Below are positions 17,362 to 20,471 of a DNA stretch of 44,774 nucleotides, piece by piece. The notes under the pieces are model-generated. The model searched no databases and was not told the origin of the DNA. It was given only the letters and a program-made list of their open reading frames with translations. Numbering within the stretch: position 1 is the stretch's first letter; each line of letters starts with the position of its first letter. Made by a program: the position numbers and the translations under genes. Origin of the DNA: a virus; IMG/VR virus record IMGVR_UViG_3300045988_107221, positions 1 to 44,774 of that record, one strand, 5' to 3'.

Positions 17362-17830
17362 CTTTCACCTCGGTGAGCTCAAGCGTATACGGTGACCAAC
17401 CCAAGTACCTTTCACGGTCTACATCACAACTAAAAAAGTCTTTCACATCTTCAAAATCTTTAAAGAATCCGTCACGATCAAACATATCTGGCACCATCTC
17501 GTTTATACCCGGCGCGTAAATTTGACCGTTTACAACCTCATATGTTTTTCCAGCGATAAATTTTTCATCACCTGTCAGGAAACAGATTTTTCCTGAATAA
17601 TATTTTTCGCATTTTTCTTCGCTTACTTTTTCTAAATAACGTTCATCAAACATGAAGTCTACTTCTTCCATATAATAACCGATTCCACAGTCACGAATTC
17701 CAATTCCGTCAATCGTCACAATCTTGCCGATCAACCTATCCATACAATATGCCCAGCTGCCAAAATAATCGTCAGCAGTGTTTCCATCTAAAATTTTCAC
17801 CTTATCTCCAATATTGAATTTAGTTTCCAT
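17354..17830 (-). CDS. hypothetical protein
   Basis: 158-aa ORF, RBS GGAAAGGAG, overlapping the helicase start. Confidence 0.6.
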   Translation of the reverse strand: METKFNIGDKVKILDGNTADDYFGSWAYCMDRLIGKIVTIDGIGIRDCGIGYYMEEVDFMFDERYLEKVSEEKCEKYYSGKICFLTGDEKFIAGKTYEVVNGQIYAPGINEMVPDMFDRDGFFKDFEDVKDFFSCDVDRERYLGWSPYTLELTEVKDD

Positions 17831-17832
17831 GT

Positions 17833-18003
17833 TTACTCCTTTCCTAAATACTCATATACCTTTGCTTCAGATATATGATATGTCCAAACAGTACTCATTT
17901 TGATTGCGTATCCAAACGGTAAAATTCCTCGTTGCAATCCGATCCGAACAAACTGAGGGGATTTACCAAGTAATTTTGCACATTCGATAACAGACAATTT
18001 CAA
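17833..18003 (-). CDS. excisionase/AlpA-like (HTH_17-type) small DNA-binding protein (56 aa, below cutoff)
   Basis: Translated by hand from a TTG start: MKLSVIECAKLLGKSPQFVRIGLQRGILPFGYAIKMSTVWTYHISEAKVYEYLGKE. This pattern is recalled from Xis/AlpA-type HTH proteins. Start codon uncertain. Confidence 0.55.
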   Translation of the reverse strand: MKLSVIECAKLLGKSPQFVRIGLQRGILPFGYAIKMSTVWTYHISEAKVYEYLGKE

Positions 18004-18210
18004 TCATTCCTTTACCATCGCATTTCTAAGTTCTTCACCAGTTATTCCGAGCTTTAAAGTTAAAACTGAAATATCTTTCTCAGTGAGCTTTGTATTCCCA
18101 TTAAGCTTACCGCTTGCCGATTGTTTTGAAATTCCAAGAATCTCAGCCAGATAATTAACGAAATCATCTCGCCCGGCATCGATCATTTTCTTTTTTATCA
18201 GATTTCGCAT
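18004..18210 (-). CDS. Cro-like / small HTH regulator
   Basis: 68 aa. HTH FVNYLAEILGISKQSASGKLNG. Early position in the lytic-direction operon. Confidence 0.6.
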   Translation of the reverse strand: MRNLIKKKMIDAGRDDFVNYLAEILGISKQSASGKLNGNTKLTEKDISVLTLKLGITGEELRNAMVKE

Positions 18211-18238
18211 TTTCTCATCTCCTTTCTTAAATATTGAA

Positions 18239-18296
18239 TTGCCGCAATGGGAATCGAACCCATGACATCATTGCTCTACCACTGAGCTATGCGACA
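18239..18296 (-). ncRNA. tRNA-like element lacking the anticodon arm
   Basis: The minus strand folds as: acceptor 5' strand TGTCGCA, then TA, the D arm GCTC-AGTGGTA-GAGC, a 9-nt linker AATGATGTC, the T arm ATGGG-TTCGATT-CCCAT, acceptor 3' strand TGCGGCA, and discriminator A. The acceptor stem has 7 bp (one G-U). G18/G19, T54-T55-C56 and A58 are conserved. No anticodon stem-loop is possible. Confidence 0.7.
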
Positions 18297-18358
18297 ACCG
18301 TTTTACAGCGGGCGATACCGCATGACCCTCTCACTAAATAAGAGAAAATTAACCTATA

Positions 18359-18604
18359 TTATTCCTCGCCGTCACCTTCTTTAATGAAGTCAATGACTTC
18401 CTGAACAGTAAGAGGGTCCGTTGCATTATTTTCAAGATAATCTTTGAAAGAAATGTCCGGGGAAATTATCCCGCTTTTAACGCCCGCTAAGTATTCTTTC
18501 ATAAGGGGCTGCTGTACATCTTCTGGTCTTGCTGTTGTGCCATTTTTTAAGATGATAGTTTTTCCAAGTTCAATCTGTTTTTCTAACTGTTTTACAATAT
18601 TCAT
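18359..18604 (-). CDS. hypothetical early protein
   Basis: Start moved to the ATG at 18604 (RBS GGAGAAAGG), 81 aa. First gene transcribed divergently from the repressor. Confidence 0.55.
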   Translation of the reverse strand: MNIVKQLEKQIELGKTIILKNGTTARPEDVQQPLMKEYLAGVKSGIISPDISFKDYLENNATDPLTVQEVIDFIKEGDGEE

Positions 18605-18896
18605 ATTATTGCCTTTCTCCACGTTTCGGCGTTGGTCACCGTGTTTTTGTTTACAATATTATTCTACTATAATTTCCAGCATTTGTATATTGACATTTTA
18701 CACAAAAATTTTATTTTATATTAGTTATTTTTACTAATTTCATAAAATCCTTACTTTTTACGCTTTTATTATATTAAGATAATTTCCAATTGACAACACA
18801 AAATGCGTAATTTCTTTACGAGAACATTTGTTCGATTGACTTTGTATATTGCGGATATTATCCTATAATTGTACATATGCACGGGGAGGCGTTAGA

Positions 18897-19244
18897 ATGG
18901 AGGCAGGAGAAGTTATCAAAAAATTGCGTAATGAAAAGAAATTTACGCAATCAGAATTGGGAATTATGCTAGGAGTGAATACATCGTCAATTCAAAAATA
19001 TGAAAGCGGAGCTACCAAAAATCTGAAATTAGAAACAATCAGGGAGTTATGTCATATATTTGATGTACCTCCTCTAGTCTTTGTTTTTCCAGAAATACTA
19101 GATGAAGGTTTCGATGCATATCATGAAAGAATGTTCAAGGACCATATGAAGGCATCACTAAATGTAAATGAAGAAGGTATAAAGAAGATATTTGACTATA
19201 TAAGCGACATTCAATCTATGCCGAAGTATCAAAAGTCAAGATGA
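18897..19244 (+). CDS. XRE-family repressor (CI-like, no S24 peptidase domain)
   Basis: ATG at 18897 with RBS GGGGAGG, 115 aa. HTH FTQSELGIMLGVNTSSIQKYESG. Divergent from the early operon and upstream of int. Confidence 0.75.
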   Translation: MEAGEVIKKLRNEKKFTQSELGIMLGVNTSSIQKYESGATKNLKLETIRELCHIFDVPPLVFVFPEILDEGFDAYHERMFKDHMKASLNVNEEGIKKIFDYISDIQSMPKYQKSR

Positions 19245-19447
19245 ATTCAAGATAGTTCAAGATAAGGAAATTCATCTTGAATTGGCTTAGGGCTTACGGT
19301 TGACACATATTTGAACTGAAAAGTCAAGAAGTCAAGTTAATTTCTACTTTTTATATATAAGCTAAAATCATTAAAAATTTTTGATGTTTGTAGAAAATAA
19401 TATATAAGTAAATATATATCTTGAACTTGACTTCTTGACTTTTGACA
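19235..19447. repeat. array 2 of (A)GTCAAGAT/ATCTTGAC(T) boxes (about 9 copies)
   Basis: Boxes start at 19235, 19246, 19256, 19274, 19323, 19331, 19418, 19425 and 19433. 19297..19400 is the inverted counterpart of 3484..3597. The array ends in TTGACTTCTTGACTTTTGACA, 20 nt before the int start. Confidence 0.9.
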
Positions 19448-19466: not shown

Positions 19467-20471
19467 TTGCGGAGAGCAAATGGAGAAGGTTCAATTTTTA
19501 AGCTAAGCGGTAAACGTCGTAAACCTTACGCCGTAAGAATTACAGTTGGTTATACGAATGAAGGAAAACAGCTATACAAATATGTTGGTTATTATTCCAC
19601 CAAAACAGAAGCCAAAAATGCAATGAGAGAATATCTTGTCAACCCATTCAATTTAGACCATAAGAGCACCAAGCTCAAAGATGTATACGATAGGTGGTCA
19701 GACCAGAGTCAATTGGCCCAAACGACTATGCAGAGTTATGGTTCCGCTTTCAACCAAGCAAAGCAGCTTCACAACATGAGCATGAGAGACATCAAGGCTG
19801 CACACTTGGAAGCTGCTATGGATCAAATGAAACCTCATATGCGCAGCGTGTTTAAAAATGCTATGGGGAAAGTATATACATATGCTATCAAGCACGAGGT
19901 TGTTGATAAGGACCTCATGAGTCTGATCTCAGTGAAAACTACAGTGGAGACAAAAGAGAAAACACCATTCACCTTGGCTGAGATCAACAAACTGAAAACA
20001 TTTAAGCATCCATTAAATGACACCGTTTTCATCCTTTTGTATACGGGATTGCGGATCAATGAATTGCTTGATATTAAATGTGAAAATGTTCACTTGGATG
20101 AACGGTATATGATTGGAGGTAAGAAAACGAAGGCGGGCCAGAATCGAATCATTCCAATTCATGATGCAATTTATCCTTTAATAAAATCAAGATGTGAACA
20201 AGAAAATAAGTATCTGATAACCAAAGATAACAAGAAGATCAATTATGCTACATACAGAATTAGCTATTGGAATAAAATGAACTCTGCACTCGGGTTTAAA
20301 CATACACCGCACGACACACGTCACACATTTACGACATTTGCAGATAGATGCGACGTGCATAAAGTAGCATTGAAGAGAATTTTAGGTCATACGTTGAGCG
20401 ATATGACTGATCATTATACCCATAAAGATCTCGATGAATTACTGGCTGAGATCAATAAAATTGTATATTAA
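19467..20471 (+). CDS. int: tyrosine recombinase / phage integrase
   Basis: 334 aa. TTG start after AAAGGGAGAG. Catalytic pattern TGLRINEL (Arg), HDTRHTF (His-x-x-Arg) and LGHTLSDMTDHYTH (His...Tyr). Confidence 0.9.
   Translation: MRRANGEGSIFKLSGKRRKPYAVRITVGYTNEGKQLYKYVGYYSTKTEAKNAMREYLVNPFNLDHKSTKLKDVYDRWSDQSQLAQTTMQSYGSAFNQAKQLHNMSMRDIKAAHLEAAMDQMKPHMRSVFKNAMGKVYTYAIKHEVVDKDLMSLISVKTTVETKEKTPFTLAEINKLKTFKHPLNDTVFILLYTGLRINELLDIKCENVHLDERYMIGGKKTKAGQNRIIPIHDAIYPLIKSRCEQENKYLITKDNKKINYATYRISYWNKMNSALGFKHTPHDTRHTFTTFADRCDVHKVALKRILGHTLSDMTDHYTHKDLDELLAEINKIVY

What the first reader, a model, noticed from the sequence alone, without database searches (positions are those of the whole stretch)
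18239..18296. tRNA-like RNA that keeps the acceptor, D and T arms but has no anticodon arm, embedded in the early operon
**Seen in sequence:**
- The minus strand folds into a 7-bp acceptor stem (U1-A72, one G-U pair).
- It has a canonical D arm (GCUC-AGUGGUA-GAGC) and a canonical T arm (AUGGG-UUCGAUU-CCCAU) with G53-C61.
- The elbow-forming residues G18, G19, T54, T55, C56 and A58 are all present.
- Only 9 nt (AAUGAUGUC) connect the D stem to the T stem, where about 22 nt of anticodon arm plus variable loop should be.
- No CCA is encoded.
- It sits between the 81-aa early gene and the Cro-like gene on the same strand, so it would be co-transcribed with them.

**Established knowledge:** the acceptor/T-arm/elbow portion is what RNase P, RNase Z, CCA-adding enzyme and several tRNA-binding factors recognise. 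Bacterial Y-RNA-like molecules and viral RNAs mimic exactly this part. Several phage-defence nucleases target tRNA anticodon loops.

**Inference, in no order:**
- An mRNA processing signal (tRNA punctuation) that uncouples the first early gene from the rest.
- A decoy or sponge for a tRNA-binding host factor or defence enzyme, immune to anticodon nucleases because the target loop is absent.
- A decayed captured tRNA gene.

It is unlikely to be attP, because integration there would split the early operon and it is 1.2 kb from int.
Basis: partly seen in the sequence, partly recalled or inferred. Interest (0 to 1): 0.75.

Follow-up and report, generated by a model that had tools for sequence, protein, structure and literature searches.

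The report
Phage tRNA look-alike lacking anticodon arm
A gut phage carries a 58-base RNA gene that keeps every part of a tRNA except the anticodon arm. It is one of many such elements in phages, is kept intact by selection, and most likely marks where host tRNA-trimming enzymes cut the phage's early messenger RNA.

Summary
Window 18296..18239 (minus strand) matches the Rfam tRNA model end to end at 48 bits, with the 17-position anticodon arm replaced by 3 nt. ARAGORN calls no tRNA.

It is not a one-off. In close relatives of this phage, a tRNA-like element ends 27-29 nt before the same small Cro-position gene. The acceptor, D and T arms are kept through compensatory changes. The segment where the anticodon arm should be is 9, 13 or 17 nt, or a non-decoding insert that brings the element to 81-112 nt. 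None of these is a real decoder. More distant relatives have no element there.

The same arm-less design recurs in at least 24 unrelated acceptor families in viral contigs and bacterial genomes. It often lies 9-43 nt upstream of a gene.

Best reading (confidence about 0.45): a bacterial/phage counterpart of the plant-mitochondrial and haloarchaeal "t-elements". RNase P and RNase Z would cut it out of the early transcript, splitting the mRNA and releasing a small tRNA-like RNA. A trans-acting role for that RNA is not excluded, and plain decay is unlikely.

Side discovery: another arm-less sub-class, often with alanine identity (G3•U70, A73), is tightly linked to a small Cys-rich protein gene.

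The parts
18239..18296 (-). Arm-less tRNA-like element, 58 nt. Acceptor 5' strand 18296-18290; U8 A9 18289-18288; D stem/loop/stem 18287-18273; linker AAUGAUGUC 18272-18264 (position 26, 3 nt, then variable-loop positions 44-48); T stem/loop/stem 18263-18247; acceptor 3' strand 18246-18240; discriminator A 18239.
   Evidence: Rfam tRNA 48 bits. Own covariance model R1 73.9 bits. MFE fold equals this structure. Covariation in the class and in the lineage.
18211..18238 (-). 28-nt spacer that would become the 5' UTR of the downstream gene after RNase Z cleavage. It begins UUC and carries the AAGGAG ribosome-binding site at 18224-18219.
   Evidence: Sequence. Spacer length is 27-29 nt in all relatives that carry an element, although the spacer sequences have diverged.
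18004..18210 (-). 68-aa gene at the Cro position (HTH-like, weakly supported) immediately downstream of the element.
   Evidence: ORF list. MarR_2 HTH match below threshold. 65 homologues. In distant relatives it follows the early promoter directly.
18359..18622 (-). 87-aa ORF (81 aa from the ATG), acidic, with no family match. It is the upstream gene on the same strand and its stop lies 62 nt before the element.
   Evidence: Present in L381 and L383-385 and absent from the 111-112-nt-type relatives L386-L396.
18768..18796 (-). Best promoter-like site for the early (minus-strand) transcript, TTGTCA-17-TATAAT. A second, weaker site lies at 18689-18661.
   Evidence: Consensus scan, 11/12 matches; no terminator-like site in 17700-19400. 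The TGTCAAT box recurs at the early promoter of relatives. This is a consensus match only.
18849..19244 (+). Divergent CI-type repressor (HTH_3). Context only.
   Evidence: Pfam HTH_3, E = 4.9e-11.
19467..20471 (+). Tyrosine integrase. Context only; it marks the phage as temperate.
   Evidence: Pfam Phage_integrase, E = 1.2e-17.

Best explanation
The element is a tRNA-derived cis processing signal, a phage counterpart of the 't-elements' of plant mitochondria and haloarchaea.

**Shown**
- It has a tRNA acceptor stem, D arm, variable-loop remnant and T arm, but no anticodon arm.
- It lies in the early minus-strand unit, 62 nt after the 87-aa ORF and 28 nt before the Cro-position gene.
- Relatives keep the helices and the spacing while the body varies.

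**Inferred mechanism**
1. The early promoter transcribes the 87-aa ORF, the element and the downstream genes as one RNA.
2. The element folds into the tRNA L-shape without its lower limb.
3. Host RNase P cuts at its 5' end (between U-1 and U1).
4. Host RNase Z cuts after A73, as it does for CCA-less pre-tRNAs.
5. This separates the 87-aa ORF message from the rest of the early operon. It gives the Cro-position gene a fixed 28-nt leader with a 5' monophosphate.
6. It also releases a 58-nt tRNA-like RNA that the CCA-adding enzyme would probably extend to 61 nt.

The selected function is taken to be the cut. The released RNA may be a by-product, or it may have a role of its own.
For: 1. **tRNA homology.** The only defect is the anticodon arm: Rfam 48 bits, with 17 model positions replaced by 3 nt.
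2. **Conserved slot.** All 16 distinct variants from close relatives end 27-29 nt before the same gene's start codon, even though the spacer sequences have diverged.
3. **What is conserved matches what RNase P/Z read.**
   - In 12 distinct lineage variants, 97.9% of acceptor and T cells pair.
   - 8 of 12 pairs changed on both sides. The covariation score is 0.64, against 0.22 for shuffles and at most 0.16 for slid registers.
   - The D loops keep GG.
   - The anticodon position holds 9, 13 or 17 unpaired nt, or non-canonical inserts in elements of 81-112 nt.
4. **The window against L179.** The linker AAUGAUGUC is identical, but four stem pairs are swapped by double changes. This is the signature of a constrained RNA.
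5. **RNase Z substrate features.** No CCA is encoded in any of the 24 class families. The trailer starts with a pyrimidine in 20 of 24 families, and with UU in the window lineage.
6. **Transcription context.** The best promoter-like site is upstream of the 87-aa ORF and there is no terminator-like site up to the downstream gene.
7. **The same layout in other phage families.** Several unrelated families place an arm-less element 9-43 nt before a gene. Examples are terS, portal and other genes in L017, L048, L052 and L004. It often sits directly after a leader hairpin or terminator.
8. **Precedent.**
   - t-elements lacking the anticodon arm direct RNase P/Z cleavage at mRNA 5' and 3' ends (PMC1920247, PMC5499578, PMC6546412).
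   - An anticodon-arm-deleted pre-tRNA is cut as fast as the full one by protein-only RNase P.
   - Bacterial RNase P accepts even minimal stem-loops (PMC4836652).
Against: - No transcript data exist, so every cleavage step is inferred.
- The promoter and terminator evidence is a consensus scan only.
- Bacterial RNase P does not need a D arm or the variable-loop core. Their retention (17 of 24 class linkers end in GUC, 23 of 24 in C) hints at a requirement beyond cutting.
- The 111-112-nt relatives have internally co-varying stems, so those bodies are not simply drifting.
- In those phages the element lies in the leader before the first gene, not between genes. 'Punctuation between cistrons' is therefore not the universal use.
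- More distant relatives express the same gene with no element at all, so it is dispensable.
- Some class members sit in tRNA arrays, where mRNA processing is not an obvious need.
- Conserved spacing within the lineage could partly reflect shared ancestry.
Confidence: 0.45

Rival explanations
1. The released arm-less RNA is the functional product and acts in trans. It would be an immediate-early, tRNA-pathway-matured small RNA that binds a factor recognising the tRNA acceptor/elbow. Candidates are a tRNA-targeting defence nuclease or toxin, a modification or CCA enzyme, or a synthetase. It cannot be inactivated at an anticodon arm it does not have.
For: - It is the first or second feature of the early transcript in every relative that carries it.
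- The full tertiary core is kept, not just the minihelix that suffices for bacterial RNase P: G18G19, the T loop, and a linker ending in GUC (positions 46-48) (PMC4836652).
- Arm-less elements also occur inside same-strand tRNA arrays of large phages, where they would be matured like tRNAs.
- A separate sub-class is tightly linked to a small basic Cys-rich protein and often carries the AlaRS identity set. This shows that at least some arm-less elements are more than cut sites.
- Several defence nucleases attack the anticodon arm or loop (PMC12445682).
Against: - No partner is identified in the window. No relative of the Cys-rich protein is encoded there.
- The window element has U3•G70, not G3•U70. 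The class shares no discriminator or 1-72 pair, so there is no common synthetase identity.
- Close relatives carry hairpins of 20-60 nt at the anticodon position, so absence of that arm is not the conserved trait in this lineage.
- There is no antisense complementarity to the neighbouring transcript: the longest match is 9 nt, and 14% of shuffles do as well.
Confidence: 0.25
2. It is a non-functional remnant. A captured phage tRNA gene lost its anticodon arm by deletion or by recombination between tandem tRNA genes, and simply has not yet decayed further.
For: - Relatives carry a genuine tRNA-Gln(UUG) about 80 nt upstream of the slot.
- L382 is a chimera of that tRNA-Gln and the tRNA-like element, fused at the shared T loop. 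This shows such rearrangements happen.
- Distant relatives lack any element.
- The 58-nt form is known only from the window and one near-identical group (L381, one linker difference), so selection on this exact form cannot be measured.
- Several array-located class members have poor acceptor pairing (2-5 of 7).
Against: - Across 12 distinct lineage variants the acceptor and T helices stay 97.9% paired, with 8 of 12 pairs changed on both sides.
- 32 of 37 unique viral elements, not pre-selected for pairing, have at least 6 of 7 acceptor pairs. Random re-pairing of strands gives about 24%.
- The spacing to the downstream gene is conserved.
Confidence: 0.17
3. It works at the DNA level, as an attachment or recombination site (attP-like, or a landing site for another mobile element) that happens to be tRNA-shaped.
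For: - Temperate elements commonly use tRNA genes as integration sites (PMC9897764).
- The slot is a recombination-prone place: body types are swapped and L382 is a chimera.
- The 87-aa ORF is present upstream in some relatives and absent in others.
Against: - attP sites carry only the 3' part of a tRNA, whereas here both halves are present and pair.
- Compensatory changes preserve RNA helices, which a DNA site does not require.
- The element lies inside the early operon, 1.17 kb from int.
- No second copy or tRNA fragment exists elsewhere in the window.
Confidence: 0.03

Closest known systems
t-elements of plant mitochondria (wheat, Arabidopsis nad6, ccmC, cox1) and of Haloferax
   Same: - They are tRNA-derived cloverleaf remnants with acceptor stem, T arm and a more or less intact D arm; some lack the anticodon arm.
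- They are embedded in longer transcripts next to mRNA 5' or 3' ends.
- They are not decoders.
- They are cut out by RNase P and RNase Z, and the excised piece can receive non-templated C/A (PMC1920247, PMC5499578, PMC4836652, PMC6546412).
   Different: - Those are organellar or archaeal. Nine full-text searches found no description in bacteriophages or bacteria.
- Cleavage here is untested.
- The phage elements keep a near-perfect tRNA core, whereas many plant t-elements are degenerate.
tRNA punctuation and tRNA genes co-transcribed with mRNAs (mitochondrial punctuation model; MALAT1/mascRNA in mammals). From my own knowledge, not tested here.
   Same: A tRNA-shaped module inside a longer transcript is excised by RNase P/Z. 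This defines the ends of the flanking RNAs and yields a small tRNA-like RNA that gets CCA.
   Different: - mascRNA retains a shortened anticodon-like stem.
- Punctuating mitochondrial tRNAs are real decoders.
- The element here has neither.
tRNA-like domain of tmRNA (with SmpB)
   Same: It has an acceptor stem plus T arm with no anticodon arm, and it is matured by RNase P. The G3•U70 sub-class found in other phages shares the alanine identity set.
   Different: - tmRNA has no D stem and carries a large mRNA-like domain with a tag reading frame.
- ARAGORN finds no tmRNA.
- The window element has U3•G70, not G3•U70.
C4 antisense RNA of phages P1 and P7
   Same: It is a small structured RNA excised by RNase P from the leader of a phage immunity-region operon (listed among RNase P substrates in PMC11143913).
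   Different: - C4 acts by base-pairing with a downstream ribosome-binding region. No such complementarity exists here.
- C4 is not a tRNA homologue by sequence.
Bacterial Y-RNA-like YrlA
   Same: It mimics the tRNA acceptor, T and D regions (from my own knowledge).
   Different: - In YrlA the RNA ends lie in a Ro-binding stem and the 'acceptor' is closed by a loop. Here the ends are at the acceptor stem.
- No Rfam family other than tRNA matches.
Phage-encoded tRNAs that evade anticodon nucleases
   Same: They are phage-borne tRNA genes, with selection centred on the anticodon arm (PMC12445682).
   Different: Those tRNAs still decode and rescue translation. An arm-less RNA cannot.

Membership tests
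Canonical (decoding) tRNA | 7-bp acceptor stem, D arm with G18G19, and T arm with a UUCRANY loop | tested here: met
   Sequence; Rfam alignment; MFE fold.
Canonical (decoding) tRNA | Anticodon arm: 5-bp stem with a 7-nt loop containing U33 and a purine at position 37 | tested here: not met
   Only 9 nt lie between the D and T stems. Infernal replaces 17 model positions with 3 nt. ARAGORN finds no tRNA. The element is therefore not a member.
t-element (tRNA-like cis processing signal) | tRNA-derived fold with acceptor/T-arm mimic and conserved T loop, non-decoding (the anticodon arm is missing in some members) | tested here: met
   Definition from PMC5499578 and PMC1920247.
t-element (tRNA-like cis processing signal) | Embedded in a longer transcript with its ends next to an mRNA 5' or 3' end | tested here: inconclusive
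   - The position fits: same strand, 62 nt after one ORF and 28 nt before the next, with spacing conserved in relatives.
- Co-transcription rests only on a consensus promoter/terminator scan.
- No transcript ends are known.
t-element (tRNA-like cis processing signal) | Cleaved by RNase P at the 5' end and RNase Z at the 3' end | not testable with these tools
   This needs enzyme assays or end mapping. Indirect support only: no CCA is encoded and the trailer is U-rich.
tmRNA tRNA-like domain | G3•U70 alanine identity plus an mRNA-like domain with a tag reading frame | tested here: not met
   The window has U3•G70. ARAGORN finds no tmRNA. The element is 58 nt in total.
YrlA / bacterial Y RNA | Ro-binding stem formed by the RNA's 5' and 3' ends, with the tRNA-like module as an internal domain | tested here: not met
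   The 5' and 3' ends form the acceptor stem. There is no Rfam match other than tRNA, even at E up to 10.
P1/P7 C4-type antisense RNA | Loops complementary to a target in the same operon | tested here: not met
   The longest complementarity to the early transcript is 9 nt, and 14% of shuffles reach it. The unpaired linker and loops match at most 6 nt.
attP / tRNA-gene fragment left by integration | Only the 3' part of a tRNA gene, next to the integrase and at the edge of the element | tested here: not met
   Both halves are present and pair. The element lies inside the early operon, 1171 nt from int.
Arm-less tRNA-like class defined here (model R1) | Acceptor, D and T arms in tRNA register, with a linker of roughly 6-15 nt between the D and T stems that usually ends in GUC | tested here: met
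   The window scores 73.9 bits against R1, but it is one of the 38 sequences R1 was built from, so this score is expected. The class was built from viral and genome scans. It has 24 acceptor families.

The most novel reading that the evidence does not exclude
Arm-less tRNA-like RNAs are an unrecognised, widespread class of phage-encoded small RNAs. They are matured by the host tRNA pathway and act in trans. In this reading the window's copy is an immediate-early tRNA-core mimic. It would occupy or mislead a host factor that reads the tRNA acceptor/elbow, for example a tRNA-targeting defence enzyme. The G3•U70 sub-class would work as an alanine-accepting mini-tRNA together with its linked small basic Cys-rich protein, much as SmpB stands in for the missing anticodon arm of tmRNA.
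Probability: 0.2. Interest if true: 0.85.

Novelty: new variant of a known kind. Interest (0 to 1): 0.62.

Why it matters
**If the processing model holds.** Phages would be using degenerate tRNAs as host-enzyme-dependent cut sites to shape their operon mRNAs. This principle is documented for plant mitochondria and haloarchaea, but I did not find it described for bacteria or their viruses. It would explain some tRNA "pseudogenes" in phage genomes. It would also add a natural counterpart to engineered tRNA-based insulators and scaffolds.

**If the released RNA acts in trans.** It would be a new kind of phage small RNA at a time when many defence systems are known to attack tRNAs.

**Testability.** Either way the element is small, sharply defined and recurrent. 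There are at least 24 acceptor families, plus a protein-linked sub-class. Northern blots, end mapping and RNase P/Z assays would therefore settle the question quickly.

**Practical point.** tRNA finders miss these elements or mislabel them. ARAGORN gives either nothing or inconsistent anticodons for the relatives.

Tried and rejected
- **GenBank phages.** Near and distant searches with 1.5-3 kb around the element found nothing, and the 58-nt element alone found nothing. A search with a family consensus returned only ordinary tRNAs. It also gave one false lead: the Cronobacter phage GAP32 'tRNA-Lys' is 127 nt, a tRNA with an insertion and not arm-less.
- **Metagenome scan.** Only L323 was a true relative.
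- **Bacterial-genome scan.** About three quarters of the hits are a different object and were set aside. They are D arm plus T arm with no acceptor pairing, mostly in Bacteroidota.
- **Literature.** Nine full-text searches found no description of arm-less tRNA-like genes in phages or bacteria. Subscription-only papers are not covered, so prior description cannot be excluded.
- **Antisense (C4-like) model.** Rejected.
- **tmRNA, Y-RNA and other Rfam families.** Rejected.
- **attP.** Rejected on anatomy and position.
- **Host identity.** None of the named genome loci shares sequence with the window. Relatives come from pig and human gut metagenomes and the window is 37.8% G+C. The host is therefore only inferred to be a low-GC gut bacterium.
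- **Thermodynamics.** The z-scores of -1 to -2.4 are not persuasive on their own.

Full report
**1.
- The minus strand of window 18296..18239 reads UGUCGCA UA GCUC AGUGGUA GAGC AAUGAUGUC AUGGG UUCGAUU CCCAU UGCGGCA A.
  - a 7-bp acceptor stem with one wobble pair (U3•G70);
  - canonical D and T arms, with G18G19 and the T-loop residues;
  - a 9-nt linker where about 22 nt should be;
  - no encoded CCA.
- The Rfam tRNA model matches exactly these coordinates at 48 bits (gathering score 29; E = 2.4e-7 for the whole window). All 71 model positions are covered and the 17-position anticodon arm is replaced by 3 nt.
- ARAGORN finds no tRNA or tmRNA in the window. No other Rfam family fits, even at E up to 10.
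- The minimum-energy fold is the three-arm structure, but its z-score is only -1.8. The case therefore rests on homology and comparison, not on energy.

**2. Context in the window.**
- The element lies in a 148-nt gap. The stop of an 87-aa ORF with no family match is 62 nt upstream. The start of a 68-aa gene is 28 nt downstream. Both genes are on the element's strand.
- A CI-type repressor and a tyrosine integrase lie divergently upstream.
- The 68-aa protein is 'Cro-like' by position and by a sub-threshold HTH match only.
- The best promoter-like site on this strand (TTGTCA-17-TATAAT, 18796-18768) precedes the 87-aa ORF. No terminator-like site occurs between 19400 and 17700. Co-transcription is therefore plausible but inferred.

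**3. The window's own lineage.**
- *How relatives were found.* Through the SNF2 helicase (loci L177-L256) and through the 68-aa protein. They come from pig and human gut metagenomes.
- *A fixed slot.* In every close relative a tRNA-like element ends 27-29 nt before the start codon of the 68-aa gene. The one exception is the L382 chimera.
- *Shared features.* All have a UGNN... acceptor stem (UGYC... in all but the L178 group), a D arm whose loop contains GG, a 5-bp T arm, A73 and a UU trailer.
- *The body differs.*

| Element length | Loci |
|---|---|
| 58 nt | window, L381 |
| 62 nt | L177, upstream slot |
| 69 nt | L180 |
| 81 nt | L383-385 |
| 85 nt | L179 |
| 88 nt | L220 |
| 110-112 nt | L177b, L178, L257, L323, L386-396 |

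- *None is a decoder.*
  - None has a canonical anticodon arm.
  - ARAGORN either ignores them or assigns mutually inconsistent anticodons: Tyr-AUA at position 39, Thr-CGU, and Leu-CAA at position 28.
  - Rfam scores them at 36-48 bits, against 63-64 bits for the genuine tRNA-Gln(UUG) about 80 nt upstream in several relatives.
- *The shared helices are under constraint.* Over 12 distinct variants, 97.9% of acceptor and T cells pair, and 8 of 12 pairs changed on both sides. The covariation score is 0.64, against 0.22 for shuffles and at most 0.16 for slid registers.
- *The window against L179.* They share the identical linker AAUGAUGUC but differ by four double (compensatory) changes in the stems.
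- *Recombination reshapes the locus.* L382 is a chimera of the tRNA-Gln 5' part and the tRNA-like 3' part, joined at the shared T loop.
- *The element is dispensable.* More distant relatives (68-aa protein 78% identical or less) have no tRNA or tRNA-like element. There the gene follows the early promoter directly or after a short leader.
- *Position varies with respect to the 87-aa ORF.* In the 111-112-nt-type phages the element lies in the leader between the early promoter and the gene, with no 87-aa ORF.

**4. A wider class.**
- *How it was found.* I used a pattern that requires a common D arm and a T loop too close together for a normal tRNA.
- *Viral set, with no pre-selection.* 32 of 37 unique elements have at least 6 of 7 acceptor pairs. 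Random re-pairing of strands gives about 24%.
- *Well-formed elements.* They fall into 24 acceptor families.
  - Linkers are 7-10 nt in 19 of 24 families.
  - 17 of 24 linkers end in GUC (positions 46-48) and 23 of 24 end in C.
  - None encodes CCA.
  - There is no shared discriminator or 1-72 pair.
- *Covariation.* On 38 of them all 7 acceptor pairs and the 3 unconstrained T pairs co-vary, with a score of 0.795 against 0.155 for shuffles.
- *Caveats.*
  - The D arm and T loop were fixed by my pattern.
  - The rows were chosen for pairing.
  - Shuffle controls ignore phylogeny.
- *Genomic position.* Several phage families place the element 9-43 nt before a same-strand start codon. Examples are terS in a large gut family, portal in another, and L017, L048, L052 and L004. 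It often comes directly after a terminator-like or leader hairpin. In large phages and some chromosomes it sits in same-strand tRNA arrays, sometimes with degenerate stems.

**5. Mechanism.**
- *What is conserved.* The conserved parts are those recognised by RNase P, RNase Z and the CCA-adding enzyme. The part needed for decoding is free or absent.
- *Precedent from the literature.*
  - Plant mitochondrial t-elements are tRNA-like structures, some without an anticodon arm. Their ends coincide with mRNA 5' or 3' ends, and they are excised and receive non-templated C/A (PMC1920247; summarised in PMC5499578).
  - Haloferax t-elements are used in the same way (PMC6546412).
  - Removing the anticodon arm does not slow cleavage by a protein-only RNase P, and bacterial RNase P accepts even stem-loops (PMC4836652).
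- *Favoured model (0.45).* RNase P/Z excise the element from the early transcript. This uncouples the 87-aa ORF, or the leader, from the Cro-position gene and fixes a 28-nt 5' UTR.
- *Points against it.*
  - Retention of the whole tertiary core.
  - Internally co-varying bodies in the 111-112-nt relatives.
  - The array-located and protein-linked class members.
  Together these keep a trans-acting role open (0.25).
- *Other readings.* Plain decay is disfavoured by the compensatory changes (0.17). A DNA-level site is unlikely (0.03). An antisense mode like P1 C4 is not supported.

**6. Side discovery.**
- *The pairing.* In six loci with different acceptor sequences, a small ORF stops 4-11 nt before the arm-less element. 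The protein has a basic N-terminal part (..AERLRRT..RKxKRK..). In four of the six it has a Cys-rich tail (C-x2-C-G-G-x-M-S/T-W-C ... C-C-x-D-Y-G-T-C-x-C-S-stop). It matches no Pfam or PHROG family.
- *The reverse test.* I searched with the protein alone. An arm-less element lay next to the gene in 13 of 14 loci, either just after the stop or just before the start. These elements have D stems my original pattern could not have found (ACUC/GAGU, GCAU/GUGC), so the D stem co-varies too.
- *Alanine identity.* Nine of the 13 (seven distinct sequences) carry G1-C72, G2-C71, G3•U70 and A73, the classical AlaRS identity set.
- *Not in the window.* The window element is not of this type, and the window encodes no such protein.

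**7. Novelty and verdict.**
- The object is real, recurrent and under structural selection.
- Its nearest known kind is the t-element. I found no description of such elements in phages or bacteria, but the searchable library is incomplete.
- I rate it a new variant of a known kind, with interest 0.62. The mechanism remains inferred, but it is directly testable.

Noticed in passing
L417-L430 (e.g. L417:1501-1783, L426:1501-1719, L427:1501-1735, L424:1426-1707); also L008, L013, L021, L029, L050, L159: A gene-RNA pair. An uncharacterised small protein has a basic N-terminal part and a Cys-rich tail (...MSWCSxCQxWxSTCCxDYGTCxCS-stop), with no Pfam or PHROG match. Its gene lies within about 4-53 nt of an arm-less tRNA-like element in 12 of 14 loci found by the protein alone; in a thirteenth (L419) the element is 288 nt away. 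Nine of the 13 elements carry the AlaRS identity set G3•U70 + A73.
   Followed up: partly
L116:7099-7140, L084:5442-5489, L093:2470-2527 and about 70 further genome loci among L057-L176: A large, mostly Bacteroidota group (Chitinophagaceae, Spirosoma, Flavobacterium and others) has a tRNA D arm and T arm joined by an AACAGA... linker. There is no acceptor-stem pairing. In L116 it sits at the end of a tRNA array. Rfam gives only partial tRNA hits.
   Followed up: partly
L382:1900-1975: A chimeric gene. The 5' part of tRNA-Gln(UUG) is fused at the shared GGTTCGAATCC T loop to the 3' part of the tRNA-like element, so the two acceptor strands no longer match. This is direct evidence of recombination between tandem tRNA(-like) genes.
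   Followed up: yes
L386:1860-1971, L394:1862-1972, L177:2893-3002: The 110-112-nt variants in the same slot have internally co-varying stems. At the anticodon position they have a 7-nt purine-rich, Shine-Dalgarno-like loop (UGAGAAA, GGAAGAA, GGAGGCA) without U33. These bodies look structured rather than drifting.
   Followed up: partly
L178:3009-3082, L179:3034-3107, L180:2790-2863, L220:3049-3122, L383:1735-1806: A genuine tRNA-Gln(UUG), scoring 63-64 bits, sits about 30-90 nt upstream of the tRNA-like slot in several relatives. It is absent from the window. In L177 an arm-less 62-nt element occupies that upstream position instead.
   Followed up: yes
Immediately 5' of the element in L005, L007, L009, L011, L035, L052, L017: A canonical terminator-like hairpin plus U tract (for example AGCACCCUUCGGGGUGCUUUUCUU) abuts nucleotide 1 of the arm-less element, which is followed 18-34 nt later by terS or another gene. 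RNase P cleavage there would leave the upstream RNA ending in the hairpin.
   Followed up: partly
L002:~1905-1985; the equivalent 80 nt upstream of the element in L001, L016, L045, L051: Two different element families share an upstream motif. It starts with CACCUCCUUUC, which resembles the 16S rRNA 3' tail. A hairpin with an AAUCG loop follows, showing a few compensatory changes, and then GGUGCUGGCA. There is no Rfam match.
   Followed up: partly
window 18796-18789 and 18696-18687 (minus strand); the same box in L386, L394, L397-L415: A TGTCAAT(A) box recurs at the early-promoter -35 region of the window and its relatives. It may be the operator of the repressor/Cro switch.
   Followed up: no
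L397-L404 and L409-L414, about 25-45 nt upstream of the 68-aa gene's start: Relatives that lack the tRNA-like element have a small conserved hairpin (CCCU-N11-AGGG) in the leader at roughly the corresponding place.
   Followed up: no
L416:594-720 (Cronobacter phage GAP32, JN882285.1 300083-300209): The annotated 127-nt 'tRNA-Lys' has an insertion of about 50 nt between the D arm and an apparently normal UUU anticodon arm.
   Followed up: no
L005:5265-5328 (minus strand): A match to the Rfam GP20-b RNA motif (RF03003, 48.8 bits) in a contig of the gut phage family that carries the arm-less element.
   Followed up: no
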